Positions 26,396 to 45,544 of a stretch of DNA of 64,000 nt are shown here, in pieces. The notes beneath the pieces were generated by a model. The model had not been told where the DNA came from. It saw only the letters and a program-made list of their open reading frames with translations, and made no database searches. The position numbers and the translations under genes are program-made. Each line of letters starts with the position of its first letter. The stretch's first letter is position 1. The stretch comes from Escherichia phage vB_EcoM_phAPEC6: the sequence record MK817115.1; one strand, given 5' to 3'.

Positions 26396-26815
26396 TCATT
26401 TACAGTTTTCTATAACTATTGCACGTTTTAGTATTTTACTTTCATAAACATACTTAAGATGACCTTCTTCACGAATACGATTGAACACATATCCTAGTTT
26501 ATCTTTTAGTACTGAAGCGGTATCAATGTCAAGATTAACTTCAACCCCTCCTGTTAATTTAACTTTATATGTAAAGCTAAAAGCATCACCAGATTCAACC
26601 AATGGGACTACTTGTTCATACGTATTCAACATAACTCGTTCATCATTAACTAAATTATATATTACTATATCACAAGTTTTTACCCCAATTTCCTCTAATG
26701 TAGGAGCATTATCTACTATAACATCTTTTACTGTATTTGCAACCTGTTTAGCATCTGCTGCATATACATTAAAACTAAAAAGTACTAAAATAATACTTAA
26801 AAAAATCTTTTTCAT
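26396..26815 (-). CDS. Secreted small protein (signal peptide)
   Basis: MKKIFLSIILVLFSFNVYAADA signal-peptide-like N-terminus; AAGGA RBS. Confidence 0.6.
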   Translation of the reverse strand: MKKIFLSIILVLFSFNVYAADAKQVANTVKDVIVDNAPTLEEIGVKTCDIVIYNLVNDERVMLNTYEQVVPLVESGDAFSFTYKVKLTGGVEVNLDIDTASVLKDKLGYVFNRIREEGHLKYVYESKILKRAIVIENCK

Positions 26816-26824
26816 TATATATCC

Positions 26825-27148
26825 TTATTTTATTTTACATGTCATATCGGGTTGTGCTGGTTTATTATTTTTAAACGGATTAGGTTTTTTATCTTTCTTT
26901 TTATCTTTTAAAGGTTTTTTGTCTTCTTTTTTATCTTTATCTTTGTCTTTTTTATTTTTATCAGGTTCAGAGGGAGTATTACATTGTGCTGGGGGTTGAT
27001 TAGTTGGAGTACAGCTATTGTCTGATGGGAGTATTACTTCTTTACAATTGTAAAATAGTAAACTTTTATTTGTGGTTAAATTATGAAAACGATAGTTACG
27101 TTCATTATTATAATAAATTGTTTTAGTACTTTCAATGTCATTGCACAT
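26825..27148 (-). CDS. Hypothetical protein with Lys/Asp-rich low-complexity tail
   Basis: KDKDKDKKEDKKPLKDKKKDKKP; weak RBS, start uncertain. Confidence 0.4.
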   Translation of the reverse strand: MCNDIESTKTIYYNNERNYRFHNLTTNKSLLFYNCKEVILPSDNSCTPTNQPPAQCNTPSEPDKNKKDKDKDKKEDKKPLKDKKKDKKPNPFKNNKPAQPDMTCKIK

Positions 27149-27158
27149 TACTACTGAA

Positions 27159-27410
27159 TCACCGGAACTCTTTTTCTATTCCCATTACATCAGTCTTATG
27201 CTCAGATAGTATACCTGAAGTATATGAATCTTTGTTGTCAAACACATTAAATCCAATAGTTCTGTCGGTGTCGTGTATTATTCCTTTTGTGTATGAGGTA
27301 GTATAGAACTCCCCATTTCTGAAATCCTGCCTTGCTACGGAGCAATGATAATCTGCACCATAAGCAGTACTGGAAAATAATACAATTCCAAATATAATAT
27401 ATTTTTTCAT
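27159..27410 (-). CDS. Secreted small protein (signal peptide)
   Basis: Start set to ATG 27410 (AGAGGG RBS): MKKYIIFGIVLFSSTAYGADY; the ORF-track extension runs into the promoter element. Confidence 0.55.
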   Translation of the reverse strand: MKKYIIFGIVLFSSTAYGADYHCSVARQDFRNGEFYTTSYTKGIIHDTDRTIGFNVFDNKDSYTSGILSEHKTDVMGIEKEFR

Positions 27411-27444
27411 TGTAATCCCTCTTCTTAATTCCTCTTTTGTATTT

Positions 27445-27474
27445 ACAAAAAAAGGCTGACCGAAGTCAACCTTT
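27445..27474 (-). promoter_or_regulatory. Composite terminator/early promoter element
   Basis: AAGGCTGACCGAAGTCAACCTT hairpin + T-run; TTGACT then GTAAATAC. Confidence 0.6.
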
Positions 27475-27481
27475 TGTTTTA

Positions 27482-28759
27482 TCATTTACCGTATTTGCTC
27501 ATGATGTCCTTTTCCCAAGGAGTTACATTTCCATTTTCGTAATCACGGAAAGAGTCATCAAGTGTAGTCAATGCATAATCATATGCCTCACCGGATTCAA
27601 CATCAATATCAACAGCACCATTCACTACATCAGTCCACGCTTTTTGTAGTTTACGAGCGTTGTTACCAACTTTATCTTTAATCCAACTAAGATTTCGGTT
27701 TATACTCTTCTTATCAGCACCAGCTTTTTCACCAACATCTGCAACCCATTGCATTAATTTCTGTAGTTCGTTATGGGATTTTTCAGTCATTTGGCGGTCT
27801 TGTGACAGTTCAGCTTCCATGTCATCAATTTCTTCGTCTGAATGAACATCGTTCTGTTCTACTGCACCTTCTTCATCATCACGCATCAGATAACCATCTC
27901 GTGTAACCTTCTCACCATGATCAGCTTCATACTTTTTCATAGTATTGAATGCAGCATCCATTGCAGTTACAAAACGACTCTTTTCACCTTGTACATAAGA
28001 TTTAAGTGCATCGTTAACTGCATCAGATACTAATTTAATCTTATCGTCTTTACCTTCCAGACGGTTTTCTAACTTAGCTAGTACATTCTTAACTTGTTGA
28101 GCATTAGCACGGTCTTCTTTACCAATACTATCAAATGTTTTAAGTACGCTTTCAAGACTTACTTCCTCTTGTGCAGGCACATCACCTTGTTGCGTACCTT
28201 CAAGTGCACGCATTATAGTACTGAATACTTCAGTTGGTTCAGTACTGGTATTTCCACTCATTGCATCAAGCACAGCTTGTGCTTTGACTTTTAATTCTTC
28301 TTTAGGTACAGATTGCAATTCTTTCACAATACCTTGGATAAGTTGTGGTTTATTAGCAAAAATCTTACCTAACTTATCAGACAGTTCTTTGACAGGGTTA
28401 ACCGCCTTTGGTGCTTCTTGTTTTGGTTCTTCTTTCGCAGGAGCAGACTTTTCTTTTTCTTCACGTTCCATATCAGCTAGACGTTGTTTTTGTGTAGCAT
28501 TAAGAAGTCCCAATGAATTAACATAACGTAGCTTTTCTAGCTCAGTCATGTTCTCAGTACTCTTAACTTCACCTGCTTCTGCGTTTGCTTTACCAGCTAG
28601 ACCAGTTCCTTGGTTACGTGACCCACGTGAACCTTGACCTGCTTGATAACTATTTGGACGGCGGTTGCGTTCACTCCATTTATCAGAGTGACCAGCCATG
28701 TTACCACCATTTTTATCAGTAAAATTACTTGGCATTTGATTTCTCTCCATAGATTTCAT
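27482..28759 (-). CDS. Lys/Glu-rich 425-aa protein, paralog of 29005..29388
   Basis: Shares YVNSLGLLNATQKQ and IVKELQSVPKEELKVKA blocks with the 127-aa neighbour; TATAAATA box ~16 nt upstream of ATG. Confidence 0.7.
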   Translation of the reverse strand: MKSMERNQMPSNFTDKNGGNMAGHSDKWSERNRRPNSYQAGQGSRGSRNQGTGLAGKANAEAGEVKSTENMTELEKLRYVNSLGLLNATQKQRLADMEREEKEKSAPAKEEPKQEAPKAVNPVKELSDKLGKIFANKPQLIQGIVKELQSVPKEELKVKAQAVLDAMSGNTSTEPTEVFSTIMRALEGTQQGDVPAQEEVSLESVLKTFDSIGKEDRANAQQVKNVLAKLENRLEGKDDKIKLVSDAVNDALKSYVQGEKSRFVTAMDAAFNTMKKYEADHGEKVTRDGYLMRDDEEGAVEQNDVHSDEEIDDMEAELSQDRQMTEKSHNELQKLMQWVADVGEKAGADKKSINRNLSWIKDKVGNNARKLQKAWTDVVNGAVDIDVESGEAYDYALTTLDDSFRDYENGNVTPWEKDIMSKYGK

Positions 28760-28777
28760 TTTTTCTCTATGTCTATA

Positions 28778-28816
28778 TTTATAGTATAAAGAAAAGGCTG
28801 ACCGAAGTCAACCTTA
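28778..28816 (-). promoter_or_regulatory. Composite terminator/promoter element (carries TATAAATA)
   Basis: GGCTGACCGAAGTCAACC hairpin; minus strand then reads TTTATACTATAAATATAG. Confidence 0.6.
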
Positions 28817-28821
28817 TTTTG

Positions 28822-28935
28822 TTACTTAGATTGTTCTTGTGCAGGTGGATTTACTTTTTGATCCACTACATAGAATACACCACCAACCAGTACTGCGGCG
28901 ATGAGTGCAGCAACTACAAATTTCAAACCTTGCAT
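28822..28935 (-). CDS. Small 38-aa membrane peptide (not in ORF track)
   Basis: ATG at 28935 after GAGG; MQGLKFVVAALIAAVLVGGVFYVVDQKVNPPAQEQSK; flanked by two composite elements. Confidence 0.45.
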   Translation of the reverse strand: MQGLKFVVAALIAAVLVGGVFYVVDQKVNPPAQEQSK

Positions 28936-28957
28936 ATATGATACCTCAGTTATATTG

Positions 28958-28992
28958 AGAAGTTATGATACAACAAAGGGCTGACCTTAGTC
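28958..28992 (-). promoter_or_regulatory. Composite terminator/early promoter element (variant)
   Basis: GGGCTGACCTTAGTCAACCCC hairpin + T-run; TTGACT then TATCAT. Confidence 0.6.
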
Positions 28993-29004
28993 AACCCCTT
29001 TTTA

Positions 29005-29388
29005 TTACTTCTTGAACTTATGTTTTTCACTTTCGATTGCATTCACGATTTCATCATGAATTTTACGAAGATTGTGAGTTTTCTTTAGAGATTCATGTAA
29101 TGCACGGAATGCAGAGTGTACAGTTGCTTTAAAGTGCTCTTTAGGAGTTACTTTAAGTTTCTCGATAATATCACGTACATAGATTGGGTGATCCTCAAAC
29201 ACACGATTAAGCTCATGACCTAGTGATTCTAGGCTAAATGCTTTTTCACGGGATGGACGATCATGTGCAAGACTTTGGTCTGGTTTTAGAAGACCTAGTG
29301 AATCTAGATACTTGTGCTTATGTGCATTGTCTAGACCAGAAATATCAACATCATGTGATGGATCTTTCTTATTCCATTTATCAACCAT
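29005..29388 (-). CDS. 127-aa protein, paralog of the 425-aa K/E-rich protein
   Basis: HKYLDSLGLLKPDQS and IIEKLKVTPKEHFKATV align with 27482..28759. Confidence 0.65.
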   Translation of the reverse strand: MVDKWNKKDPSHDVDISGLDNAHKHKYLDSLGLLKPDQSLAHDRPSREKAFSLESLGHELNRVFEDHPIYVRDIIEKLKVTPKEHFKATVHSAFRALHESLKKTHNLRKIHDEIVNAIESEKHKFKK

Positions 29389-29503
29389 TTTTATAACTCC
29401 TATAAGAGATAAATTTTACTATAATATTTATAGTTCCGTTGTCATTTATATCGAATGACATAAAACATTATATCATAATAAGAATGGTTGTCCCAAAGTT
29501 AAA

Positions 29504-29977: not shown

Positions 29978-30557
29978 TATTCATTAAACACAATTTAGGT
30001 TTTATAGCATTCAACACCCATATGCATTCTTTGTAAGTAGCTATTATATCATCTAAATGCTCAGTTACAATGCTTTCTTGAAAATATTCTTCATCATTGA
30101 GCTTTGCTAATTTAGTAACATCACACGTAGGCACTATAGGTCTGGATTGTACACCCATTCCATTATTGATATTAGTGAAATGTACAAAATGGTACTTCAC
30201 AACACCTTTATCTAGATTTATTATACATGACAAATTTTCCAACTCAGTTAGTTTTTTATTACAAGTAACATTAATGAAACCAGCATTATAGGCTCTATAA
30301 TCATCTACTGATATCTCAAAATCATTACGTTCAAATATAAGTGAAATGAGTTGGTCCAGTGGTTTGACATTCATATATTTTAATGAATTTACGTATGATA
30401 CTTCAATCTTAGATGAAATTATCTTTTTACTAAGTGCAGTTAATTCTTTGTTAGATTTAACTGTTAAAACAATATGTTTAAACCTAGAACTTTTGTTCTT
30501 TTTTGATACTTTAAAACGACCTTTACGATTCATAATTTCCTCAATTAATAATTTCAC
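29961..30557 (-). CDS. Hypothetical protein
   Basis: 198-aa ORF. Confidence 0.6.
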   Translation of the reverse strand: MKLLIEEIMNRKGRFKVSKKNKSSRFKHIVLTVKSNKELTALSKKIISSKIEVSYVNSLKYMNVKPLDQLISLIFERNDFEISVDDYRAYNAGFINVTCNKKLTELENLSCIINLDKGVVKYHFVHFTNINNGMGVQSRPIVPTCDVTKLAKLNDEEYFQESIVTEHLDDIIATYKECIWVLNAIKPKLCLMNIVRDL

Positions 30558-30762
30558 ATTTAACGTGTGGTTTATATAGCATAATTAACCCATTTTTAAG
30601 TACAATGATTGTTGCTCTGTTAGTAATCGAAACGTTTTTAATTATACTTTTTTTATATGTTTCAACATATTTCTCTTCATAATTTATACATTTAATATAT
30701 TCTTTTTGTTTAGCACTTACAACAGTACTGAATAATATCAGTACAAGTACTATATATTTCAT
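30541..30762 (-). CDS. Secreted small protein (signal peptide)
   Basis: MKYIVLVLILFSTVVSA N-terminus. Confidence 0.5.
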   Translation of the reverse strand: MKYIVLVLILFSTVVSAKQKEYIKCINYEEKYVETYKKSIIKNVSITNRATIIVLKNGLIMLYKPHVKCEIIN

Positions 30763-31108: not shown

Positions 31109-31120
31109 TTTTAATTTACC

Positions 31121-32206: not shown

Positions 32207-32243
32207 AATTATAACAAAAAAGGCTGACCGAAGTCAACCTTTG
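32207..32243 (-). promoter_or_regulatory. Composite terminator/early promoter element
   Basis: AGGCTGACCGAAGTCAACCT hairpin + T-run; TTGACT then TTATAAT. Confidence 0.65.
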
Positions 32244-32429: not shown

Positions 32430-32780
32430 TCAATCCTTATATTTACACAAGCCACCAAAACTAGTTTCTTTAGCACCACGACGCATCATAACTAATTTAG
32501 CATATTGTGTGCCATTACTATCTTCATATACATCTACTTCAATAAACGCTAAGAAGTTAGGGTCTGTGTCGTTAGAAAACTCAGTGAAGCTAATGTCGCC
32601 TACTGTATGCTCTTTAACAAACGTATATGATTGTCCATCAATATATACAATATCTCGATCGTCACTATCACCTTGATAGATATGTTTAATATTACCATCT
32701 GTACAAACTAAACCTTCCAATGGTTCAGCATATGACAATCCACACATTAACATACATACAAAAAATAAAATAATTTTCAT
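32430..32780 (-). CDS. Secreted small protein (signal peptide)
   Basis: MKIILFFVCMLMCGLSYAEP N-terminus. Confidence 0.55.
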   Translation of the reverse strand: MKIILFFVCMLMCGLSYAEPLEGLVCTDGNIKHIYQGDSDDRDIVYIDGQSYTFVKEHTVGDISFTEFSNDTDPNFLAFIEVDVYEDSNGTQYAKLVMMRRGAKETSFGGLCKYKD

Positions 32781-32782: not shown

Positions 32783-33160
32783 TTATTTTCCTCCAACGTT
32801 AAGTGATTTCTTGTACTGATATTCTTTATAAGTACTATACCATATATCACCAACGTAAATCAAGTACCACGTAGCAGGATAAAGAGCCAATCCAGTACTG
32901 ATGTATACGAACTTTTGGTCAAGGACATCAAATACATACAGAAGGAAAGTTACTCCCATAATGCAAGAACAAATTAACCACAAGTTATAAGCAATCGAAT
33001 CGCAAGCAAAAATAGAATCAAGCTTAGAAATTAGGACATATTTGTTTGTTAAAATGAAATGAATTACTGCAACTAAACAATATCCTGCCATAAAAATAGA
33101 AATTAAAAAAGACAGAATAATTGGAATATTCAACAACAAAAGTAAAATAGTGTTTACCAT
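32783..33160 (-). CDS. Small membrane protein
   Basis: 125 aa with hydrophobic segments. Confidence 0.55.
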   Translation of the reverse strand: MVNTILLLLLNIPIILSFLISIFMAGYCLVAVIHFILTNKYVLISKLDSIFACDSIAYNLWLICSCIMGVTFLLYVFDVLDQKFVYISTGLALYPATWYLIYVGDIWYSTYKEYQYKKSLNVGGK

Positions 33161-33170
33161 TTTTTAAGTC

Positions 33171-33530
33171 CTATATTTCACAGTGTAAGTTCAATTTATC
33201 TATATCTAGGTCACGGCGTACCGATGAGTCCAAGTAAATTACTATATAGATATCACCATTACCAGTTCTTGGGTCTACAATTAATATTACGTTTGCTAAT
33301 GTACCAGAATCATCTCTATAAGTCGAGATTTTTTTATTACCGATAATACTTTCTACTTTAAAACGATAAATCACACCATCAACAACTATATTTTTACCAT
33401 TTCTAGGGTCGTTAGTCAATACATGCCACGTTCCCTTAGTACTACGACAATATGTTTCTGCTGCTGCACCATAACTAAAACATGAAAATAATGCACACAC
33501 AAGTGCTATTAATTTTATATAACTCTTCAT
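33171..33530 (-). CDS. Secreted small protein (signal peptide)
   Basis: MKSYIKLIALVCALFSCFSYGAAAE N-terminus. Confidence 0.55.
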   Translation of the reverse strand: MKSYIKLIALVCALFSCFSYGAAAETYCRSTKGTWHVLTNDPRNGKNIVVDGVIYRFKVESIIGNKKISTYRDDSGTLANVILIVDPRTGNGDIYIVIYLDSSVRRDLDIDKLNLHCEI

Positions 33531-33608
33531 AACAAACCTCTAACGAGAAATACTTCTGTACTATATATATGTACAGAAGTATTTAATACTATAGAGATAT
33601 TTTCACTG

Positions 33609-33935
33609 TTACATCTTATTCGTGAACTTGAATTTGATAATATCAATCCAAATTTTAACATTTCCTGCAAATAGTGCTTTGATTAGCCACATAATTGCAA
33701 CAAAGTTCTCAACTAAATCCAAAGTTTTAACTACTGCACCGAGTGGGAAGATAAAACTCAAAACCCATACAATTACTGAAACCACAACGACTGCATAGAA
33801 AATACGCACAATCGGTGAATCAAGCATAAACAACTCAGAGAACTCTTTTTTATCATTATCATCAGTAATGAAGCATTCGTAAACCAGAAGCCAAATCAGA
33901 ATTAAAGACGGAATTGAAATTAGTACTGATAGCAT
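33609..33935 (-). CDS. Small membrane protein
   Basis: 108 aa hydrophobic. Confidence 0.55.
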   Translation of the reverse strand: MLSVLISIPSLILIWLLVYECFITDDNDKKEFSELFMLDSPIVRIFYAVVVVSVIVWVLSFIFPLGAVVKTLDLVENFVAIMWLIKALFAGNVKIWIDIIKFKFTNKM

Positions 33936-33992
33936 ATTTTTTACCTCAAGTTTAAGTGTTAAGTTTCAGACTACAGGAACCATTATACAGTA

Positions 33993-34235
33993 CTACGAAC
34001 GTTTGTCAACATTTGTTTCTTCAATAAGCATAAGATAACTTAACACGAAGAGTAATACCGAAATAATATCAATAACTGTAAAGCTCACTGGAATGATAAT
34101 AGACACCAGTACTAATGCCACGTTTAGCAAGAATACAGTAGTGAGATCTACCATCGTTCGTCTAGTGGCTAATGCCACTAGTGTAGGATAGAACATAAAC
34201 AATAGTGCAACAACAAAACTTAGTACTAGATACAT
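33993..34235 (-). CDS. Small membrane protein
   Basis: 80 aa hydrophobic. Confidence 0.5.
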   Translation of the reverse strand: MYLVLSFVVALLFMFYPTLVALATRRTMVDLTTVFLLNVALVLVSIIIPVSFTVIDIISVLLFVLSYLMLIEETNVDKRS

Positions 34236-36439: not shown

Positions 36440-36655
36440 TCACACTGCCACTCCTAATAGGTCGGTAGCTTTCTTGAGTACTACGTCAATGGTTTCCAGT
36501 ACTGCACCTTTGTGTTCAATTGATACAATATTATTATAAGTATCAAGGTCCAAGTACTCCATATATTCAGTTTTGAATACACGAACATCAGTACTAGTGA
36601 TTTTAATATCACAACCTTTATCCCAAATAACCTGCATCATTTCATTGGTAGTCAT
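36440..36655 (-). CDS. Hypothetical small protein
   Basis: 71-aa ORF. Confidence 0.5.
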   Translation of the reverse strand: MTTNEMMQVIWDKGCDIKITSTDVRVFKTEYMEYLDLDTYNNIVSIEHKGAVLETIDVVLKKATDLLGVAV

Positions 36656-36930
36656 TATTCAACCTTATCATAAACAAGTTTGTGTGTGCTTAATACTTTG
36701 TTGTGATGTCCAGGGCATTCATATACATACAATCGCTCCTGACGTTTTTCCCAACCACCACAGATACGACCTGATTGTGTACATATTTCATACTCGTTAA
36801 TAAAAGACTTACCTGTGAATGTACAATCCTGACGAACTAAGTCTTTTGCACTAAACCTGCCGTCATCATTACATGCTGTAAGAAACATTGTACTGCACAC
36901 AATGATTCCAGACAAGAGTTTTTTAATCAT
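36655..36930 (-). CDS. Putative lipoprotein
   Basis: MIKKLLSGIIVCSTMFLTAC: signal peptide ending in a lipobox-like L-T-A-C. Confidence 0.55.
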   Translation of the reverse strand: MIKKLLSGIIVCSTMFLTACNDDGRFSAKDLVRQDCTFTGKSFINEYEICTQSGRICGGWEKRQERLYVYECPGHHNKVLSTHKLVYDKVE

Positions 36931-37297: not shown

Positions 37298-37543
37298 TTA
37301 TTCTCCATGAATTACGGAAGTGTTGATTCGTGTTTTACCGCTAGTGTATCCAGTACTTGTATTTGCATTAGGACAGTACACAGTGTATAAAGTCGCACCA
37401 GCACCATCTTGTTGCATACGATAAATCTTACACCCTGCTTCTTTTAATTCAGCAGGTAGAACAAAATCACTTGTACGTTCTTTGGTAGAAGCATCACATG
37501 CAGTGAGTAGAAATGCGACGAGTACTGCTACAATGTATTTCAT
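37298..37543 (-). CDS. Putative lipoprotein
   Basis: MKYIVAVLVAFLLTAC lipobox-like N-terminus. Confidence 0.55.
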   Translation of the reverse strand: MKYIVAVLVAFLLTACDASTKERTSDFVLPAELKEAGCKIYRMQQDGAGATLYTVYCPNANTSTGYTSGKTRINTSVIHGE

Positions 37544-37944: not shown

Positions 37945-37974
37945 ATTATACTGCTATTATTCAGTACTGTCAAT
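37945..37974 (-). promoter_or_regulatory. Sigma70-like early promoter
   Basis: Minus strand: TTGACA-GTACTGaataatagcag-TATAAT. Confidence 0.6.
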
Positions 37975-38418: not shown

Positions 38419-38637
38419 TTAATCGATAATTTTATATTCACGATGACCATAGAAGCCAGCCTCAAGGATGCGATTACCATCAGCATCTTCCAAGTCCCAA
38501 CCACGGGATGTTTCGGCAATAATAGTCATGATGTGACCTCTTGGGAAAATCCCACTCAGAGTGGATACATCCTCAAGTAATTGAACTTTCTTTCCAACAT
38601 TGGAATTCGGTTTAAACATTTTATGGCCCTTATTCAT
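38419..38637 (-). CDS. Hypothetical small protein
   Basis: 72-aa ORF. Confidence 0.5.
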   Translation of the reverse strand: MNKGHKMFKPNSNVGKKVQLLEDVSTLSGIFPRGHIMTIIAETSRGWDLEDADGNRILEAGFYGHREYKIID

Positions 38638-38812
38638 TGATCACATCAAGTACTTTATCCAGCTTTTTACCAATGCTTTCCTTTGGTTTCTCACCATTCT
38701 GGAATACATTAGAACTGCAATACTCAGGACGCGTATTAGGAAACTTCTCGTTCATCCAGGAGTGACCGTAAACACCCAGCATGATGCCAACAATAAGAAT
38801 GATAATTTGCAT
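38630..38812 (-). CDS. Hypothetical small protein with N-terminal hydrophobic segment
   Basis: 60-aa ORF. Confidence 0.45.
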   Translation of the reverse strand: MQIIILIVGIMLGVYGHSWMNEKFPNTRPEYCSSNVFQNGEKPKESIGKKLDKVLDVINE

Positions 38813-39616: not shown

Positions 39617-39847
39617 TTACATTATTCCTTCTATGCAACAACCAAGAATTACTTTTTTAACTTCAACAACTCGTACCAAATAGAATCCATTTGAAAAGTT
39701 AAAACTATACATTTGTACTAAGGCATCTGCTTCAGATTTCGCACGGATACATGATAGATAAATTTCACGTATATCACCATCTAACGATACTTGTTTCTCT
39801 GCATCGATGACAATAGAACGAATCTCAAAACGAACACCATAACTCAT
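39617..39847 (-). CDS. Hypothetical small protein
   Basis: 76-aa ORF. Confidence 0.5.
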   Translation of the reverse strand: MSYGVRFEIRSIVIDAEKQVSLDGDIREIYLSCIRAKSEADALVQMYSFNFSNGFYLVRVVEVKKVILGCCIEGIM

Positions 39848-40053
39848 TGAGTTTGTCCTACAATAAGCTTTGTGTTAGTATTACTATTGTAACACCACAT
39901 TTGTTCTTTATTAACTGTAATCCAAATATCTTTGTTTACTTGTTCGTATGTACTATCACGTACTGCTATGCATTGATTCATGGAATTCATTGGGGTTATT
40001 TGTATACCGGAATTAACAGAGAAAGCGACTACTAAAAAGATTACTGAATTCAT
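39844..40053 (-). CDS. Secreted small protein (signal peptide)
   Basis: MNSVIFLVVAFSVNSG N-terminus; TTGACA-N17-TAGAAT promoter at ~40095-40125 upstream. Confidence 0.5.
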   Translation of the reverse strand: MNSVIFLVVAFSVNSGIQITPMNSMNQCIAVRDSTYEQVNKDIWITVNKEQMWCYNSNTNTKLIVGQTQ

Positions 40054-40670
40054 TGGATATTCCTTAATGGTTAATCATCCATCTCTTCGAGATGTCTGTT
40101 CGCTTCTAATACTACGTATTCTACGCGAATGATTAATAACTGTCAAGGACTTTTAATATTGACGGGATTTGAGGAAGGGATTTTTCTTCCCCCCACAAGG
40201 AGGGAAATTTGACGCTGATGGTATCAGAGCTATTGCATTGAAGATTACTCATAACGAGTGCGAAAGCGGGTCATCCTGTTTCTCTCTACTTCAGTTTCAT
40301 ATGACGGTCTACACTTTTAAACATAGTGTATCTTCATTAAGTATCTATGCAATCAAATACTTAATGTGAGTACTCAAATTTTGGACGCAACTTTCCTGTA
40401 CAAAATTCGATAACTCTCCCTTAGATAATTCGTAAGGTGTTATCCTTATATGTCTATCAAGGAACCACCAGCTATCCTAACGTGGTTCTTTATACAGCCG
40501 CATTGCCGTGAGGGGTTCAAACTATGCCCACATCTAACGGGTTTCTTTTGCTGTTCGCACTGTCGGACTGCTCAACTGCCCTCTACGTTTTCGAGTGGAT
40601 CAGGTACATGAATATCATGCCAACAGAATTGTACAAGATAATTATATCACAAACTTTTACTTCATCCCAT

Positions 40671-40703: not shown

Positions 40704-41669
40704 TTAGAAATCTTCGTATTCGTACCCTTTTGCAAGTACTAACTTCTTAAGCTTTTGCATAGCTTCACTGTACTTTCGGTGTATTGATGAACGGGATTTA
40801 ACATATTTTCCATTATCATCAACAAAACCATTATCAGCAATCTCACGAAGCGTTTCAGGTTCATATTCACCTAGACCATGAACACGCTGGATAATCTCAC
40901 GTTCTTTAGTACTCAATTCGTTAGTTAGTTCATTGATAGCATAACGTAAAGGTGCACGGATACTATCAACATTGAGGTTAAAATCAGAAGCAGGTGAATG
41001 AATAATGTCACCTAATGTACCATCTGTAACACCGTCTAATGGTGCATCCAGTGAAGTGTATTCGCTTTGAAATAATAAACAATTATTAACATGCTGAATC
41101 TCAATCCCAGTACCCTCTGAGATTATTTCAGGTGTTGGGCGAACACCATGTTTACGCATATATTCCTGGCAGAATCTTTTTACTTTGATCTTATGAACAC
41201 TCATATAACGTGGGAAGTGTACCATATAGTTAGCGTCAGAACTTTCGTTATAAACTGTCATGTAAATACTAGAAGAAGCATAGGTAATGAACTTCACATT
41301 CTTATTAAGATCAAAGGTTTTTAGTGCTCTCATGAACCCCTCAACACCATATGAAATCTTATCTTCAAATGGGATATAACAAGTACATTTACTTGCTACA
41401 TCAATAATAAGTCCATAATTGTAACGAACTAACAGTTCAGTGTTTTTCTTTACATTGATACCAGCTTGAATATCACGAATTAGATCTTCATTGGAAACAT
41501 TTGGTGGTCGCTTAAGTGTAATATTATATTTGAAACTGCTTTGTACTTTACCTTCATTTTCATCTTTATCTTCAACGAAATCTAAGGCTTCTAGTGTGTT
41601 GACTTCTTCATTAGCAAAACATTCATCCAGAACTTCTTCGGCAATTGTATTTAAATCAAGCTTTTTCAC
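40704..41669 (-). CDS. Sigma-70 family RNA polymerase sigma factor
   Basis: Region-2-like LLVRYNYGLIIDVASK ... GVEGFMRALKTFDLNKNVKFITYASSSIY and a region-4-like C-terminus (EREIIQRVHGL ... TLREIADNG). Confidence 0.6.
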   Translation of the reverse strand: MKKLDLNTIAEEVLDECFANEEVNTLEALDFVEDKDENEGKVQSSFKYNITLKRPPNVSNEDLIRDIQAGINVKKNTELLVRYNYGLIIDVASKCTCYIPFEDKISYGVEGFMRALKTFDLNKNVKFITYASSSIYMTVYNESSDANYMVHFPRYMSVHKIKVKRFCQEYMRKHGVRPTPEIISEGTGIEIQHVNNCLLFQSEYTSLDAPLDGVTDGTLGDIIHSPASDFNLNVDSIRAPLRYAINELTNELSTKEREIIQRVHGLGEYEPETLREIADNGFVDDNGKYVKSRSSIHRKYSEAMQKLKKLVLAKGYEYEDF

Positions 41670-41690
41670 TTACATCTCCTAATGACGAAA

Positions 41691-42188: not shown

Positions 42189-42189
42189 A

Positions 42190-42609
42190 TTAAACCTTAT
42201 CTAAGAATTTATCGTATATATAAAATTCTTTATCGGTGAATACATTAATTCTAGTATCGAATCTTTGCATCGTGTTCATATACAATGAACTTTTTAAATA
42301 AAAATACAAAGCAACAAATTCTGATATATGCATATTCTTTTTATTGTTACATAAATTCTTTAGCATTTTGATGCTATCAAATTCTTCTTTATCAAATCTG
42401 TACTGGTAAAAATTGTATCTATTGGATCGGCACTCATAGATACGAAGTGCCATTATATCAATACATTCTTTAGATTTACAGTACTTATTCAATACGTCAT
42501 AATCACCCGTACATAATGCTACAAAGATTTTATGTGCAAGCGTAGCTTTGCCCTCAATCGTATAATAGCCAAAAAATTTAATGATTAAGTACTGAATGAA
42601 TGTAATCAT
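42190..42609 (-). CDS. Hypothetical protein
   Basis: 139-aa ORF. Confidence 0.55.
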   Translation of the reverse strand: MITFIQYLIIKFFGYYTIEGKATLAHKIFVALCTGDYDVLNKYCKSKECIDIMALRIYECRSNRYNFYQYRFDKEEFDSIKMLKNLCNNKKNMHISEFVALYFYLKSSLYMNTMQRFDTRINVFTDKEFYIYDKFLDKV

Positions 42610-42614
42610 TTGAT

Positions 42615-42875
42615 TTAGAATTTCTCCGAAATTACTAGAGTGTCATCATAATCTTCTGCAATCTCATGAAGAACTTTTAAGTTACTTTCACCAGAAACGC
42701 TTTGTACTTCGTTCAAAAGATAGTTTAGATCAACTTTAGTTACTTTTTCTGAATCAAATACACAGAAAGTCAATTCAGCGTTTGGACAGATCTTCTTCAG
42801 ATTATCAGCAACAACTTGTTTGAAGTTGAAAGATGGGGAAGCAACCAGGTTAACTGCAACGAGAATAGATTTCAT
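42615..42875 (-). CDS. Hypothetical small protein
   Basis: 86-aa ORF. Confidence 0.5.
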   Translation of the reverse strand: MKSILVAVNLVASPSFNFKQVVADNLKKICPNAELTFCVFDSEKVTKVDLNYLLNEVQSVSGESNLKVLHEIAEDYDDTLVISEKF

Positions 42876-42949
42876 AATGTTTTCCTTTTTAGCTGATAAT
42901 TAAATTAGGAGCACATTGTACTCCATATTATTTGTTATGTAAAATACTT

Positions 42950-43201
42950 TTAGATACCAAGTGCAGTAGATAACTCTTTACGTTTGTTATATGAATCAGA
43001 TTCAATCTTACTTTTCTTGTTGAAAAGGGATTCAATATCCTTATAGATTGCTTCGATAGATTTAGTTACTACCCATTCTGATTCTTGAAGCATACCTTGG
43101 AGTCGTGCGTACTCAACTTTGATAGTACTGCGAAGTTCTTCACAAACTTCTTCATTCTTAATTAGTGCAGCACTAAGTTCTTTGACCTTATCGATGTTCA
43201 T
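42950..43201 (-). CDS. Hypothetical small protein
   Basis: 83-aa ORF. Confidence 0.5.
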   Translation of the reverse strand: MNIDKVKELSAALIKNEEVCEELRSTIKVEYARLQGMLQESEWVVTKSIEAIYKDIESLFNKKSKIESDSYNKRKELSTALGI

Positions 43202-43260
43202 AAGTTCCTTACTCTAATTTGTTTTTAACAAAATAATTATATATAACATACTAAATTATG

Positions 43261-43686
43261 TCAAGTATTTTTAGTACCTTCTTCTGCCATTTTTGTGATA
43301 TACCAATTAAGTACTGATTTGTGTACCATAAAAAATGTGAATGCAAATATAGCAATAGCTGCTGATGTAACACTATTAGATAATGACCCAAGTTGGATGT
43401 TAGTACCTAAAATAACAATAAATGGATACAACACAATCAATCTACTGTAAGGTTCGTCTCCAGTATCACGGAGAAATCCAAGCCTTTCATGATCAGTATC
43501 CATAGTGACAATTGGACAGAACATAAGTGCAGACATAAGAGCAATACCAATTTGTGCTACATTGGAAATTGTAAACCACAAAGGATTTAAACCATATGAA
43601 ATATTATTTTCTGTACAGTAGTAACCAAACGAATTGAATGCACAAACTAAAAATACAAAAATACAAATCTTATTATAGCCTCTCAT
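43261..43686 (-). CDS. Membrane protein
   Basis: 141 aa with several hydrophobic segments. Confidence 0.55.
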   Translation of the reverse strand: MRGYNKICIFVFLVCAFNSFGYYCTENNISYGLNPLWFTISNVAQIGIALMSALMFCPIVTMDTDHERLGFLRDTGDEPYSRLIVLYPFIVILGTNIQLGSLSNSVTSAAIAIFAFTFFMVHKSVLNWYITKMAEEGTKNT

Positions 43687-44105
43687 TTGTTTAGCTCCGT
43701 TAATTTTCGTTTAACTTCTAGATCATGAAACTCATCGGCATATGAGTTTTGAACAGTTCTGATGTATTCCAACATAACAAACATAGTTCCACATACCCAT
43801 AGATATGTATAGTAATCAAATACAAATGCATATAACATACACGGTACTAAAATGAAAGTGTAAACAAAACTATATCGTGTAGTTCCAAATACTTTCAGAT
43901 ATAACAAACGTCGATAATCACGGGCAAATGTATTGATGCACACTGAAAATGTAATTAATGTATACCATGAAATACCCTGAATTAAACCTGAAACATTTAC
44001 AAGTTTATGTTCATCGGAAAACCCCAGTGCATTTAGCACTGGAGCCATAACCCAACCAATAATACTAATAAGAAAAAGATATTTTGCATTACTTAGTGTG
44101 AACAT
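43683..44105 (-). CDS. Membrane protein
   Basis: 140 aa hydrophobic; 4-nt overlap with downstream gene. Confidence 0.55.
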   Translation of the reverse strand: MFTLSNAKYLFLISIIGWVMAPVLNALGFSDEHKLVNVSGLIQGISWYTLITFSVCINTFARDYRRLLYLKVFGTTRYSFVYTFILVPCMLYAFVFDYYTYLWVCGTMFVMLEYIRTVQNSYADEFHDLEVKRKLTELNK

Positions 44106-44106
44106 A

Positions 44107-44565
44107 TTACTTTAGTCCCCATGCTTTTTTGATTGCATCAACAGAGTTTTGGTCCACTACTTCCTTTTTTTCTGATGTAGTTTGAAGTTTATTAATTACA
44201 TATTCCTTTGCATCTTTTTCTATCATAAATTTACCATCAACCAACACACCAAAAACTTTAGAATTTCGGGCTGGATATGGATTAATTTCATCAAGAGTAC
44301 GGACTTTCTTATCAACTATAATGGCTTTGATGTAACCAGTTTCAAGTACTGTTGTAATCACAGTCATTTCAATTGCAACTGGTGAATCCTCCCAATATGC
44401 AATCCATTTAGTAAAGCTACGATCAGGTGAATCCTTTGTGCATTTTAATTTAATTGCACTATTAAAAATGTATTGTTTAAAATTGTCATCGACAACTTCA
44501 CTAATACTAAAATAACCTTCACGCTCTTCAACATTACGTTTGAAATTTGTAGCTAATACATCCAT
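44107..44565 (-). CDS. Hypothetical protein
   Basis: 152-aa ORF. Confidence 0.55.
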   Translation of the reverse strand: MDVLATNFKRNVEEREGYFSISEVVDDNFKQYIFNSAIKLKCTKDSPDRSFTKWIAYWEDSPVAIEMTVITTVLETGYIKAIIVDKKVRTLDEINPYPARNSKVFGVLVDGKFMIEKDAKEYVINKLQTTSEKKEVVDQNSVDAIKKAWGLK

Positions 44566-44606
44566 TTTCCATCCCCCTTGGGTTACTTGGTGTGTTAATT
44601 ATAATA

Positions 44607-45083
44607 CTAAGAATCTTTGTTGTCAAACTTTTCCCTCAAATATTTTTCTATTAATCTAATTTGTGTTGGTGGTAAGATAAAGTAATCGTACATAGATTTA
44701 CTACCATGTATCGAACAACCTACACTAATACTATAATCATATGGATATAAGTATATTGGGTCTTGTATATCAGGTATGAAAACTATTCTTGGTATATTAC
44801 CATTTCCTATTCTTACTTGGACGTTATCATTATTATTAAGATAATTTCTTATACAGTACTCAATTATACCATTTACTTTAGAATCATAACCATAATTTTT
44901 ATATTCAGGAAAAATGAAATAGCGTTCATGGTATAGATATGAGCATAGTAACGCTGGGAAAAAATTCCAAAATCCTTCATGTTTTGCAATTGTTTGTGCA
45001 TATTTAAAATGATTAGCATTACTAAAAATATTATACAGCACAAAATACACAAATGGACTTACCAACAACACTATTGTTAACAT
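44607..45083 (-). CDS. Hypothetical protein with N-terminal hydrophobic segment
   Basis: 158-aa ORF. Confidence 0.55.
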   Translation of the reverse strand: MLTIVLLVSPFVYFVLYNIFSNANHFKYAQTIAKHEGFWNFFPALLCSYLYHERYFIFPEYKNYGYDSKVNGIIEYCIRNYLNNNDNVQVRIGNGNIPRIVFIPDIQDPIYLYPYDYSISVGCSIHGSKSMYDYFILPPTQIRLIEKYLREKFDNKDS

Positions 45084-45544
45084 CAGAAGCCTCTGTATTT
45101 TTCATACACTTCAACGCATTCCATGATTTTGTCATCGTCCATCATATCATAGCCTTGTAGAAATTCTTCTTTATCAACCTTCCCTGCCATCATATCTGTG
45201 TCAGAAATTCTGGAGTCATAGAAGTAATACATATCTTTATAGTACTGTTTTTTGTGCTGCTCAATCTTTACTTTAGCATATCCAGCACAAAATGAAGGAG
45301 ATTTAACAACTTCCCATTTATGCTTCTTGATGGGTTTATCATTAGCATGTTTTTCCCTGTATGTCTGACGATAACGTTCACGCATTTCAGGCATGTATTC
45401 TTCAGCAGTACGTTTAGGGGGAGTTTTACCAGTCCCAATAGTTTTAATAGTTTGACGTTGTTCTTCTGCGTGTACTGGGGAAATGAAACATGATGTACCA
45501 AACAGTACTGCTACGATAACCATAAAATTCTTAAACATAATCAA
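45083..45544 (-). CDS. Secreted protein (signal peptide)
   Basis: MIMFKNFMVIVAVLFGTSCFISPVHA N-terminus. Confidence 0.55.
   Translation of the reverse strand: MIMFKNFMVIVAVLFGTSCFISPVHAEEQRQTIKTIGTGKTPPKRTAEEYMPEMRERYRQTYREKHANDKPIKKHKWEVVKSPSFCAGYAKVKIEQHKKQYYKDMYYFYDSRISDTDMMAGKVDKEEFLQGYDMMDDDKIMECVEVYEKYRGF

What the first reader, a model, noticed from the sequence alone, without database searches (positions are those of the whole stretch)
26396..45544. Many small secreted or lipoprotein-like proteins
At least ten small ORFs (e.g. 26396, 27159, 30541, 32430, 33171, 36655, 37298, 39844, 45083) begin with signal-peptide-like sequences, and two end the signal in L-T-A-C lipobox-like motifs. 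That is an unusually large exported repertoire for a phage early region and may act on the host envelope.
Basis: inference. Interest (0 to 1): 0.4.

Follow-up and report, generated by a model that had tools for sequence, protein, structure and literature searches.

The report
Exported small proteins, jumbo-phage early region
A 19-kb early-gene block of a 121Q/PBECO4-type jumbo coliphage encodes at least eight small proteins that are very probably exported, six with ordinary signal peptides and two as lipoproteins. That is far more than anywhere else in the genome; what they do is unknown, and blocking or reshaping the infected cell's envelope is the likeliest job.

Summary
The window is an Asteriusvirus jumbo phage, 99% identical to JP4/SP27 and 98% to 121Q.

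- **Candidates:** All nine listed ORFs are real minus-strand genes with Shine-Dalgarno sites.
  - Eight have canonical export signals: six SPase-I type (A-E, I) and two L-T-A-C lipoboxes (F, G).
  - H and an extra candidate, J, are weaker.
- **Conservation:** The signals persist in relatives with only 28-60% identity, and eight of the ten carry conserved cysteine pairs in the mature part, which fits folding in the periplasm.
- **Enrichment:** In a near-identical full genome, 7 of 16 strict predictions fall in this 18.5-kb block (45 of 567 genes; p = 8e-5). Small membrane proteins are enriched there too.
- **Timing:** Eleven perfect sigma-70 consensus promoters, all on the gene strand (0.08 expected), mark the block as host-transcribed, so early.
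- **Families:** Only D and E are paralogues, so there are at least nine unrelated families, none with a known function.
  - They are not the spanins (121Q gp511/512).
  - They are not T5 Llp/Cor homologues; similarity is confined to the signal peptide.
  - G belongs to a widespread, uncharacterised lipoprotein family of virulent phages.

Function is inferred only: periplasmic effectors, most likely for superinfection exclusion or envelope takeover.

Separately, a new, strongly covarying ~400-nt structured RNA lies at 40150-40612.

The parts
26396..26815 (-). A: 139-aa secreted protein, signal MKKIFLSIILVLFSFNVYA|ADA. The mature part has 2 conserved Cys, one near the N-terminus and one at the C-terminus.
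   Evidence: Strict SPase-I prediction; ribosome-binding site; signal and Cys pair kept at 41% identity in BF17 and JNE01; found only in Asteriusvirus-like phages.
27159..27410 (-). B: 83-aa secreted protein from the internal ATG, signal MKKYIIFGIVLFSSTAYG|ADYHC. One Cys in the mature part.
   Evidence: The internal start has the ribosome-binding site GAGGG; the longer start (27485) has none. 121Q annotates the short form. Signal kept in BF17 at 65% identity. phrog_28901, function unknown.
30541..30762 (-). C: 73-aa secreted protein, signal MKYIVLVLILFSTVVSA|KQK, with 2 conserved Cys near the two ends of the mature part.
   Evidence: The JNE01 homologue is only 28% identical but keeps both the signal and the Cys pair.
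32430..32780 (-). D: 116-aa secreted protein, signal MKIILFFVCMLMCGLSYA|EPL. Predicted 8-stranded beta structure with an N-/C-terminal Cys pair. Paralogue of E.
   Evidence: (ribosome-binding site GGAGG). hhalign of the mature parts, D against E: 93.5% probability, E = 2.4e-7. AF2 pLDDT 61, pTM 0.50. Foldseek best hit is the Tp0751 lipocalin-like barrel, TM 0.55-0.61, E = 0.03.
33171..33530 (-). E: 119-aa secreted protein, SPase-I type. The LFSC motif is not a conserved lipobox. Paralogue of D.
   Evidence: Every distant family member has a signal peptide and the two Cys. The family has only 10 representatives among 1.84 billion proteins.
36655..36930 (-). F: 91-aa lipoprotein, MIKKLLSGIIVCSTMFLTA|C-N-D, with 4 further conserved Cys.
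   Evidence: Lipobox LTAC, conserved as LTGC in JNE01 at 34% identity, and all 5 Cys are conserved. Found in 39 jumbo-phage records only. No similarity to T5 Llp.
37298..37543 (-). G: 81-aa lipoprotein, MKYIVAVLVAFLLTA|C-D-A, with Asp at +2 and 2 further conserved Cys. Member of a widespread lipoprotein family of virulent phages (phrog_902).
   Evidence: 581 phage records at E <= 1: Felixounavirus, T5-like Vibrio phages, CR8/CR9, 4MG, Aeromonas T4-likes. Profile hits and alignment. AF2 model poor, pLDDT 56.
39844..40053 (-). H: 69-aa candidate secreted protein with a weak signal (no n-region charge) and 2 conserved Cys.
   Evidence: Called only 'N-terminal hydrophobic' by my heuristic. The Muenster homologue CPT_Muenster_492 is annotated 'putative secreted protein' on the basis of SignalP. 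The Cys pair is kept at 35% identity. An 11/12 promoter lies at 40146-40118.
45083..45538 (-). I: 151-aa secreted protein starting at the ATG, signal MFKNFMVIVAVLFGTSCFISPVHA|EEQ. The N-terminal half is rich in charged residues; the conserved C-terminal domain has 2 Cys.
   Evidence: (ribosome-binding site AGAGG in front of the ATG at 45538). Found in Asteriusvirus-like phages only.
38630..38812 (-). J: 60-aa protein with an N-terminal hydrophobic segment that is either a signal peptide or a signal anchor. Weak candidate.
   Evidence: Non-strict prediction. The Muenster homologue CPT_Muenster_494 is annotated 'putative secreted protein'.
32783..34235 (-). Three small multi-pass membrane proteins (32783-33160, 33609-33935, 33993-34235) interleaved with D and E in one operon.
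   Evidence: Hydropathy predicts 2-3 TM segments each. The homologues in Muenster are annotated as membrane proteins. PHROGs give unknown function.
43261..45083 (-). Three more membrane proteins (43261-43686, 43683-44105, 44607-45083) lying next to I.
   Evidence: TM proteins are enriched in the block: 11 of 46 genome-wide, p = 4e-4.
37945..37973 (-). Perfect sigma-70 consensus promoter (TTGACA-17-TATAAT) 0.4 kb upstream of G and 1.0 kb upstream of F, with no terminator-like site in between.
33982..34009 (-). Perfect sigma-70 consensus promoter in front of the operon TM protein - E - TM protein - D.
46445..46472 (-). Perfect sigma-70 consensus promoter in front of the three-gene run that ends with I.

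Best explanation
The block 26.4-45.5 kb is part of the host-RNA-polymerase-transcribed (early) arm of an Asteriusvirus jumbo phage.

- **What it encodes:** Among about 51 small genes there are at least 8, perhaps 10, unrelated small proteins that the host Sec system exports. Six are cut by signal peptidase I and released into the periplasm. Two (F and G) are lipid-modified and cut by signal peptidase II. At least 9 small integral membrane proteins sit among them.
- **Folding and location:** The mature domains are 55-130 residues long and fold in the oxidising periplasm around conserved disulfides. In A, C, D and E the disulfide ties the two termini together.
  - G has Asp at +2, so in E. coli it should stay on the periplasmic face of the inner membrane.
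  - F (Asn at +2) would go to the outer membrane by default.
- **Proposed job (inferred):** Early in infection these proteins bind envelope components of the infected cell, such as receptors, the DNA-entry route or periplasmic enzymes. The most probable purpose is to exclude superinfecting or competing phages and to stop progeny re-adsorbing. This is how T5 Llp, Cor and T4 Spackle/Imm work, but the protein families here are unrelated to those.

Shown by sequence:
- the signals and their conservation;
- the Cys pairs;
- the clustering;
- the consensus promoters.

Inferred:
- actual export;
- timing of expression;
- targets and function.
For: - **Signals and starts:** Signals, lipoboxes and ribosome-binding sites are present.
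- **Predictor controls:** Positive and negative controls behave as expected.
- **Conservation:** Signal character is kept while the sequence diverges to 28-60% identity in BF17, JNE01 and Klebsiella phage Muenster, and in all 9 further D/E-family sequences retrieved.
- **Cysteines:** Even numbers of Cys are conserved in the mature parts of 8 of the 10 candidates.
- **Enrichment:** 7 of 16 strict predictions fall among 45 of 567 genes (p = 8e-5), and TM proteins are enriched too (p = 4e-4).
- **Promoters:** 11 perfect sigma-70 consensus promoters are all on the gene strand, where 0.08 are expected. Several sit directly upstream of operons that hold exported genes.
- **Independent annotation:** The syntenic Muenster region has 4 'putative secreted proteins', a periplasmic nuclease and about 10 membrane proteins.
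- **Early-region precedent:** The CBB paper proposes that the equivalent RpoD-promoter region is early (PMC5259590).
- **Functional precedent:** T5 Llp is an early, small, periplasmic lipoprotein with a disulfide that constrains its termini. Its authors suggest that many small phage proteins of unknown function are exclusion proteins (PMC9586334).
- **Turnover:** A, B, C, F, G and I have no detectable homologue in the syntenic region of Muenster, which suits accessory host-interface genes.
Against: - No experimental or homology link to any function exists. Pfam, PHROGs, NCBIfam, PADLOC and PDB sequence searches gave nothing with a known function.
- The predictor is my own heuristic, not SignalP or LipoP.
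- H and J are weak candidates.
- The D homologue in Muenster was annotated as a 1-TMD membrane protein and the E homologue carries no secretion label.
- Faster evolution of the exported genes is only marginal: 76% against 88% identity to BF17, p = 0.045, and not significant against JNE01 or Muenster.
- None of the genes lies next to a receptor-binding-protein gene, as llp and cor do.
- G's predicted inner-membrane location argues against an Llp-like block of an outer-membrane receptor for that protein.
- Early timing is inferred from promoter sequence alone.
Confidence: 0.5

Rival explanations
1. Lysis-timing control. Some of the exported proteins would be periplasmic antiholin- or RI-like sensors, or extra spanin-like factors, that delay or tune lysis during the long cycle of a jumbo phage.
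For: T4 RI is a small, early, periplasmic protein whose gene is not linked to the holin gene (own knowledge). Small lipoproteins and membrane proteins are typical lysis components. The Rak2-type endolysin has an N-terminal TM/SAR-like domain (PMC5259590).
Against: - The curated spanin pair of 121Q is gp511/gp512, about 150 kb away (PMC6139136 supplement).
- The endolysin is gp532.
- F and G have no adjacent or embedded i-spanin partner.
- No PHROG hit to holin, antiholin or spanin families.
Confidence: 0.15
2. Counter-defence or host takeover in the periplasm. The proteins would inhibit host periplasmic or envelope enzymes (nucleases, proteases, lysozyme-like or peptidoglycan enzymes, stress sensors), or envelope-located defences encoded by prophages or the host, rather than excluding other phages.
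For: - D/E are predicted as small 8-stranded beta structures resembling lipocalin/avidin-type barrels. Bacterial periplasmic inhibitors such as MliC/PliC use this scaffold (own knowledge; fold evidence weak).
- The repertoire is diverse and family-rich, and six of the ten candidates have no detectable homologue in the syntenic Muenster region. Both fit an arms race.
Against: No sequence or confident structural match to any known inhibitor. Foldseek gave no PDB hit at E <= 0.001. No PADLOC-related hits.
Confidence: 0.2
3. Not exported. The N-terminal hydrophobic stretches would be chance features of AT-rich small ORFs, or uncleaved membrane anchors, so there is no 'secreted repertoire'.
For: - Low-GC genomes (about 34%) are rich in Ile/Leu/Phe/Lys codons, which favours hydrophobic N-termini.
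- H and J lack canonical features.
- TMHMM-based annotation called the Muenster D homologue a 1-TMD membrane protein.
Against: - The same AT-rich genome gives 0 strict hits among 85 other window genes and 9 among 522 other genome genes.
- Shuffled or reversed proteins give 2-3 hits per 567.
- The -3/-1 sites and lipoboxes are conserved at low identity, and paired Cys are conserved in the mature domains.
Confidence: 0.07

Closest known systems
T5 Llp (lytic conversion lipoprotein) and the Cor lipoproteins of T1/phi80/N15 (phrog_1119)
   Same: Small (60-80 aa) phage lipoproteins with a classical lipobox and a disulfide in the mature part. They are expressed early from a host-type promoter and act from the periplasmic side (PMC9586334). 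The fEgEco12 GenBank record even names the F and G homologues 'lytic conversion lipoprotein'.
   Different: - There is no homology in the mature domain. hhalign of the G family against Llp aligns only the 19-residue signal peptide, and F against Llp gives no alignment.
- The weak phrog_1119 hit of G (E = 0.008) covers residues 1-48, roughly the signal peptide plus the first 30 residues of the mature protein.
- The genes are not next to a receptor-binding-protein gene.
- G has Asp at +2, predicting inner-membrane retention, whereas Llp has Ser at +2 and goes to the outer membrane.
T4 Spackle (Sp) and Imm superinfection-exclusion proteins
   Same: Early-expressed small proteins of a large virulent myovirus: one periplasmic with a cleaved signal peptide and disulfides, one membrane-embedded. 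They protect the infected cell from secondary infection (own knowledge; Spackle is cited in PMC9586334).
   Different: No sequence similarity to any candidate or to the neighbouring membrane proteins in the PHROG or Pfam scans. The number of exported families here (at least 9 in 19 kb) is much larger.
Two-component spanins (Rz/Rz1 type; 121Q gp511/gp512)
   Same: The o-spanin is a small phage lipoprotein with periplasmic Cys residues. 121Q gp512 has the lipobox ISGC.
   Different: The real spanin pair lies elsewhere in the genome and was recovered by my scan at 141.6 kb of EC22.5-2. F and G have no i-spanin partner and sit in a sigma-70-driven early operon.
Plasmid entry-exclusion lipoproteins (TrbK of RP4, TIGR04359)
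   Same: A tiny lipoprotein that blocks entry of incoming DNA from the periplasmic side. G gives a sub-threshold hit (E = 0.018, 15 bits against a cut-off of 23).
   Different: The hit is below the curated cut-off and lies mostly in the signal-peptide and lipobox region, so it is no evidence of homology.
Small 8-stranded beta-barrels of the calycin type (Treponema Tp0751 lipocalin-like domain, avidins); periplasmic inhibitors such as MliC/PliC use similar scaffolds
   Same: D is predicted to have 8 consecutive beta strands in about 98 residues. The best PDB matches are Tp0751 (TM 0.55-0.61), then avidins and FABPs. The BFVD model of the slurp01 orthologue agrees with mine (TM 0.85).
   Different: The model is of low confidence (pLDDT 61) and no hit reaches E <= 0.001. 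There are no lipocalin or MliC sequence motifs. The family has only 10 representatives among 1.84 billion proteins.

Membership tests
Sec-dependent signal peptide cleaved by signal peptidase I | Positively charged n-region, an uncharged hydrophobic h-region of 7-15 or more residues, and small residues at -3/-1 within about 7 residues of the end of the h-region | tested here: met
   A, C, D and I pass the strict heuristic as SPase-I signals. E also passes strictly but was scored as a lipobox, and is reassigned to SPase I because that motif is not conserved. B passes from its internal, ribosome-binding-site-backed start but was scored non-strict. H and J do not pass strictly. The heuristic was validated on 10 known signals; false-positive rate about 0.4%. 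SignalP itself was not available.
Sec-dependent signal peptide cleaved by signal peptidase I | Signal character conserved in homologues despite sequence divergence | tested here: met
   For example, D homologues read SYA|E, AHA|E and ARA|E, and A homologues at 41% identity keep a cleavable signal.
Sec-dependent signal peptide cleaved by signal peptidase I | Actual translocation and cleavage in vivo | not testable with these tools
   Needs PhoA or Bla fusions, fractionation, or N-terminal mass spectrometry.
Bacterial lipoprotein (Lgt / signal peptidase II pathway) | Lipobox [LVI][ASTVI][GAS]C at the end of the h-region, with the Cys at about position 15-25 and a positive n-region | tested here: met
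   F has L-T-A-C20 and G has L-T-A-C16. These are conserved as LTGC and LSAC in JNE01, and as GC/AC throughout the G family. E's LFSC is not conserved, so E is not a lipoprotein.
Bacterial lipoprotein (Lgt / signal peptidase II pathway) | Sorting residue at +2 (Asp means inner-membrane retention in E. coli) | tested here: inconclusive
   G has C-D-A, conserved within Asteriusvirus, but +2 is N in Felixounavirus and E in Vibrio-phage members. F has C-N-D here and C-D-E in JNE01. The rule itself is established knowledge; the location was not measured.
Llp/Cor superinfection-exclusion lipoproteins (phrog_1119) | Sequence homology of the mature domain | tested here: not met
   - G hits phrog_1119 only at E = 0.008 over residues 1-48.
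- hhalign of the G family against the verified T5 Llp aligns 19 signal-peptide columns only.
- F against Llp gives no alignment.
Llp/Cor superinfection-exclusion lipoproteins (phrog_1119) | Gene adjacent to the receptor-binding-protein gene whose receptor it blocks | tested here: not met
   The neighbours are small hypothetical genes. G-family genes in wV8 and a T5-like Vibrio phage lie among small replication or early genes.
Llp/Cor superinfection-exclusion lipoproteins (phrog_1119) | Blocks infection when expressed alone | not testable with these tools
   Needs plating-efficiency assays.
o-spanin (Rz1-like) | Lipoprotein gene embedded in, overlapping or adjacent to an i-spanin gene in the lysis cassette | tested here: not met
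   The 121Q spanins are gp511/gp512. There is no i-spanin-like neighbour of F or G.
Host-RNAP (sigma-70) early transcription unit | Near-consensus -35/-10 promoters on the coding strand, in excess over chance | tested here: met
   11 perfect 12/12 matches, all on the minus strand, where 0.08 are expected per strand; 27 sites at 11/12 or better on the minus strand against 1 on the plus strand. Timing itself was not measured.
Calycin/lipocalin-like 8-stranded barrel (D/E) | Eight-stranded antiparallel up-and-down beta-barrel | tested here: inconclusive
   AF2 predicts 8 strands but pLDDT is 61 and pTM 0.50. Best PDB hit Tp0751, TM 0.55-0.61, E = 0.03.

The most novel reading that the evidence does not exclude
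The block would be a dedicated early 'periplasmic effector' module of jumbo phages: at least nine unrelated exported families plus partner membrane proteins that together rewire the infected cell's envelope.

One member, G (phrog_902), would be a lipoprotein that in this phage is predicted to stay in the inner membrane. Its family is shared with Felixounaviruses, T5-like Vibrio phages, Vequinta-like phages and T4-like Aeromonas phages. On this reading it would define a new, broadly distributed class of phage exclusion or entry-blocking factors, acting at the inner-membrane or periplasmic step rather than at outer-membrane receptors.
Probability: 0.2. Interest if true: 0.6.

Novelty: new member of a known kind. 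Interest (0 to 1): 0.35.

Why it matters
Jumbo phages of the Rak2/121Q group are being developed for therapy, yet about 80% of their genes have no known function. A 2026 review of jumbo-phage biology does not contain the words superinfection, periplasm, secreted or lipoprotein.

- **A short list to test:** Eight to ten exported early proteins, with corrected start codons, form a small and directly testable set of candidates. They could explain how these phages protect a long infection cycle from competitors, mask receptors or manipulate the envelope.
- **Use in cocktails:** Exclusion factors also matter when designing phage cocktails, because phages that exclude each other should not be combined.
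- **Wider reach:** Any function found for the G family would transfer at once to hundreds of unrelated virulent phages.

Tried and rejected
- **Family and structure databases:** Pfam, NCBIfam, PADLOC and PDB sequence searches on all candidates gave nothing significant. PHROGs gave only families of unknown function.
- **Precomputed Pfam tag:** The tag PF16225 on G homologues could not be reproduced with hmmscan, even at E <= 10, so I ignored it.
- **Spanin idea for F and G:** rejected, because the curated 121Q spanins are gp511/512.
- **Llp/Cor membership:** rejected. The similarity lies in the signal peptide only, although the fEgEco12 record uses that name.
- **One expanded paralogous family:** rejected. 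hhalign on the mature parts links only D and E.
- **E as a third lipoprotein (LFSC):** rejected, because the motif is not conserved.
- **AF2 model of G:** too poor to use (pLDDT 56). Its fold search gave only noise.
- **Deep searches:**
  - The word-indexed homology searches for D and G found only close relatives.
  - The exhaustive profile search for D/E found only 10 representatives.
- **'Exported genes evolve faster':** only marginal.
- **Neighbouring genes:** Pfam on 10 non-exported neighbours gave no hits, so context gives no functional clue.
- **Not done:** I did not benchmark against T4 or T5 genomes, so 'unusual among phages' remains untested.

Full report
**Source.** The window is 99% identical over 20 kb to Escherichia phages JP4, SP27 and E9.1, and about 98% identical to 121Q and PBECO4 (genus Asteriusvirus, Rak2-like jumbo myoviruses of about 350 kb). 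The finding spans 121Q genes gp158 to gp204, all on the minus strand. In the deposited records almost all are 'hypothetical protein'.

**Checking the observation.** No signal-peptide predictor was available, so I wrote a von Heijne-type heuristic. It scores n-region charge, an uncharged hydrophobic h-region, the -3/-1 rule and a lipobox, and it counts further TM segments.
Cleavage sites were essentially correct. One of four cytoplasmic controls was called at the lax level only.
- In its strict form it fires on 3 of 567 reversed proteins, on 2.0 of 567 shuffled proteins (mean), and on 0 of 375 internal pseudo-N-termini of this phage.
- Across the whole window, strict export signals occur only between 26.4 and 45.5 kb.
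- B becomes a clear signal peptide from an internal ATG that carries the better Shine-Dalgarno sequence. I starts at the ATG at 45538, not at the upstream TTG.
- All signal-bearing starts have ribosome-binding sites.
- H lacks a charged n-region. J may be a signal anchor. Their homologues in Klebsiella phage Muenster were annotated 'putative secreted protein' on the basis of SignalP.
- Net result: eight strong and two weak candidates.

**More than chance.**
- Within the window the count is 8 of 51 genes in the block against 0 of 85 outside it (p = 2.7e-4).
- I also assembled the complete genome of a near-identical but unannotated relative, EC22.5-2, and called 567 genes.
  - Of 16 strict 'signal, no further TM' predictions, 7 lie in the syntenic 18.5 kb that holds 45 genes (hypergeometric p = 8e-5).
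  - Several of the 9 elsewhere are evident false positives, such as a methyltransferase-like N-terminus. Another is the known o-spanin.
  - TM proteins are enriched in the block as well: 11 of 46, p = 4e-4.
- About 37% of the gene products in the block are predicted to be targeted to the envelope.

**Independent support for export.**
- Homologues in BF17 (about 85% nucleotide identity), JNE01 and Klebsiella phage Muenster keep the n/h/c architecture or the lipobox although the proteins are only 28-78% identical. Examples are A at 41%, C at 28% and F at 34% with LTAC changed to LTGC.
- E's LFSC motif is not conserved, whereas its A-x-A-type site is, so E is SPase-I type.
- Eight of the ten candidates have a strictly conserved even number of Cys in the mature part: two in A, C, D, E, H and I, two plus the lipid-modified Cys in G, and four plus the lipid-modified Cys in F.
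- In A, C, D and E the pair links the N- and C-terminal ends. T5 Llp uses the same design, a Cys11-Cys58 disulfide that constrains the termini (PMC9586334).
- An exhaustive profile search for the D/E family found only 10 representatives among 1.84 billion proteins. All 9 retrieved sequences keep the two Cys, and all but one N-terminally truncated fragment carry a signal peptide.

**Early region.**
- The window has 11 perfect TTGACA-N16-18-TATAAT promoters. All are on the minus (gene) strand between 23.6 and 63.3 kb, where 0.08 per strand are expected. There are 27 sites at 11/12 or better on the minus strand against 1 on the plus strand.
- Perfect promoters sit at three places relevant to the exported genes:
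  - 37973, which is 0.4 kb upstream of G and 1.0 kb upstream of F;
  - 34009, in front of the operon TM protein - E - TM protein - D;
  - 46472, in front of the run that ends with I.
- An 11/12 site at 40146 precedes H.
- The CBB paper independently suspected that the equivalent RpoD-promoter region is early (PMC5259590).
- Timing remains an inference from sequence.

**What they are not.**
- They are not the lysis spanins. The curated 121Q spanins are gp511/gp512, about 150 kb away (PMC6139136 supplement), and my genome scan recovered that o-spanin separately.
- They are not Llp/Cor.
  - The fEgEco12 record names the F and G homologues 'lytic conversion lipoprotein'.
  - The verified T5 Llp sequence aligns to the G-family profile only over the 19-residue lipoprotein signal peptide, and not at all to F.
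- They are not one expanded family. hhalign on the mature parts links only D and E (93.5%, E = 2.4e-7), so at least nine families are present.
- No Pfam, NCBIfam, PADLOC or PDB sequence hit was found, and PHROGs give only 'unknown function'.

**Family notes.**
- G belongs to phrog_902 (E = 1.5e-13).
  - tblastn finds relatives in 581 phage records at E <= 1. These include Felixounavirus, T5-like Vibrio phages, CR8/CR9, 4MG, Erwinia jumbo phages and Aeromonas T4-likes, and all are annotated as hypothetical.
  - Family members share the lipobox, a 'LP.E(M/L)' motif and two Cys.
  - In wV8 and a Vibrio phage the gene lies among small early or replication genes, not next to tail genes.
  - G has Asp at +2. 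By the established E. coli '+2 rule' this predicts retention in the inner membrane. The residue varies across the family: N in Felixounavirus and E in Vibrio phages.
- F, A and I are confined to Asteriusvirus-like phages, with 32-39 records each.
- Only D, E, H and J are shared with Klebsiella phage Muenster. That phage has other secreted proteins and a periplasmic nuclease in the syntenic block, so the repertoire turns over.
- Exported genes are only marginally more diverged than their cytoplasmic neighbours.

**Structure.**
- The AF2 model of G, built from 18 sequences, was poor (pLDDT 56), and its fold search gave only noise.
- The model of D gave pLDDT 61 and pTM 0.50, with eight consecutive beta strands.
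- The best PDB matches for D are the lipocalin-like domain of Treponema Tp0751 (TM 0.55-0.61, E = 0.03), then avidins and FABPs. No hit reaches E <= 0.001.
- BFVD returned the orthologues (TM 0.85 to the slurp01 model) and a Serratia-phage 'lipoprotein'.
- A small calycin-like barrel is therefore plausible but not established.

**Mechanism.**
- Shown by sequence: export signals, Cys pairs, clustering with small membrane proteins, and host-type promoters.
- Inferred:
  - Early after infection the host Sec, Lgt/Lsp and Dsb machineries place these proteins in the periplasm and on membrane faces, where they bind envelope components.
  - The best-supported purpose is superinfection exclusion or receptor inactivation and general envelope takeover, by analogy with T5 Llp, Cor and T4 Sp/Imm. 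The Llp authors remark that many small phage proteins of unknown function may be exclusion factors.
- Rivals are lysis-timing control, periplasmic counter-defence or enzyme inhibition, and non-export. They are weighed in the rival-explanations section.

**Novelty and score.**
- Exported early phage proteins are a known kind.
- CPT annotators had already labelled some homologues as secreted.
- The CBB authors counted 4 putative lipoproteins and about 50 putative membrane proteins.
- What is new is the quantified clustering, the corrected starts, the at-least-nine-family inventory, the exclusion of the spanin and Llp labels, and the link of G to a widespread family.
- Novelty: new member of a known kind. 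Interest: 0.35.

**Side observation, possibly of greater interest.**
- Inside the finding's coordinates lies an ORF-less stretch between the sigma-factor gene and H (window 40150-40612, minus strand).
  - It is conserved at about 70% nucleotide identity across Rak2-like phages of Erwinia, Serratia, Pectobacterium, Cronobacter, Salmonella, Yersinia and Xanthomonas.
  - It occurs about 4 times per genome.
  - It has no Rfam or tRNA match.
- A 9-sequence alignment gives 72 consensus pairs, 38 of them with compensatory double changes.
  - 95.1% of cells are paired, against 79.9% in shuffles (0 of 500 reach the observed value) and 36-47% when the 3' partners are slid.
  - The covariation score is 0.439 against at most 0.116 in the slid controls.
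- A conserved 28-nt motif occurs in IMG/VR on contigs of about 350-378 kb and on shorter contigs (16-174 kb, presumably fragments), with up to 4 copies per genome.
- With 31 distinct copies, 27 of 40 consensus pairs covary.
- This looks like an undescribed multi-copy structured RNA of about 400 nt.

Noticed in passing
window 40150-40612 (minus strand), between the sigma-factor gene (40704-41669) and gene H (39844-40053): An ORF-less element of about 400-450 nt, probably a new structured RNA.
- It is conserved at about 70% nucleotide identity across Rak2-like jumbo phages of at least 8 host genera and is present in about 4 copies per genome.
- It has no Rfam hit (gathering threshold or E <= 1) and no tRNA.
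- The conserved secondary structure is strongly supported.
  - There are 72 pairs in 15 helices, 38 with compensatory changes.
  - 95% of cells are paired, against 80% in shuffles and 36-47% in slid controls.
  - The covariation score is 0.44 against at most 0.12.
- The motif TAGRRAGAAAYMGRRYRACCCGCTTYCG occurs in IMG/VR on contigs of about 350-378 kb and on shorter contigs (16-174 kb, presumably fragments), with up to 4 copies per genome.
- With 31 distinct copies, 27 of 40 consensus pairs covary.
- A possible extended -10 promoter (TGATATAAT) lies at about 40650, just after the terminator of the sigma-factor gene.
- Function unknown. This deserves its own follow-up.
   Followed up: partly
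window 32430-32780, 33171-33530, 27159-27485, 45083-45544: Start codons in public records hide the signal peptides.
- RefSeq 121Q annotates D (gp190, 107 aa) and E (gp188, 109 aa) from internal starts that cut off the signal.
- JP4 annotates B from an upstream ATG that has no ribosome-binding site, which buries the signal.
- I is better started at the ATG at 45538 than at the TTG at 45544.
   Followed up: yes
locus L016 (Escherichia phage fEgEco12, PP777464.1, g526 and g528), equivalent to window G and F: Both lipoprotein genes are labelled 'lytic conversion lipoprotein' (the name of T5 Llp) in GenBank. The similarity to Llp is confined to the lipoprotein signal peptide, so the label is unsupported. 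The accompanying paper does not discuss them.
   Followed up: yes
window 3-14189 (plus strand): About 12 tandem paralogous genes of roughly 250-450 aa. Nearly all begin with MLPF(A/G)RM(V/I/L)KYGN, and they have RCC1-like beta-propeller repeats (Pfam RCC1, RCC1_2, RCC1-like domain).
   Followed up: partly
window 15370-17809 and 24304-25339 (minus strand): A family of about 8 tandem genes of roughly 104-141 aa, most predicted to span the membrane three times (about 112 aa is typical). They flank the block, and the one member scanned (25001-25339) matched phrog_19285, function unknown. They add to the membrane-protein load of this early arm.
   Followed up: no
window 28794-28815 and 32219-32242 (minus strand): Two copies of a terminator-like hairpin, AAGGTTGACTTCGGTCAGCCTT followed by a T-run. 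The stem contains a -35-like TTGACT, and a -10 box (TATACT / TATAAT) follows at the right spacing. These look like combined terminator-promoter cassettes between early operons.
   Followed up: no
window 55720-56206 and 57475-57654 (minus strand); tRNAs at 52950-57192: Four small paralogous ORFs of 54-59 aa, all starting MTHEEWM, are interspersed with a cluster of 7 tRNA genes: Thr, Asn, Met, Ser, Arg, Ser and Gly. One of them, 'Ser(act)', has an odd anticodon call.
   Followed up: no
window 27482-28759 and 29005-29388 (minus strand): Two genes annotated 'virion structural protein' in JP4 and 121Q sit inside this promoter-rich early block, next to exported gene B. The first is rich in charged and low-complexity sequence and is 47-49% identical to its Muenster homologue. 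They may be packaged or injected proteins rather than classic late structural genes.
   Followed up: no
locus L003 (Klebsiella phage Muenster), 3422-4102: The syntenic early block of the Klebsiella relative encodes a 'periplasmic DNA/RNA non-specific endonuclease' (NucA-like, HHpred 99.9% according to the depositors). No counterpart was seen in the window. An exported nuclease would fit the idea that periplasmic proteins of this block exclude incoming phage DNA.
   Followed up: no
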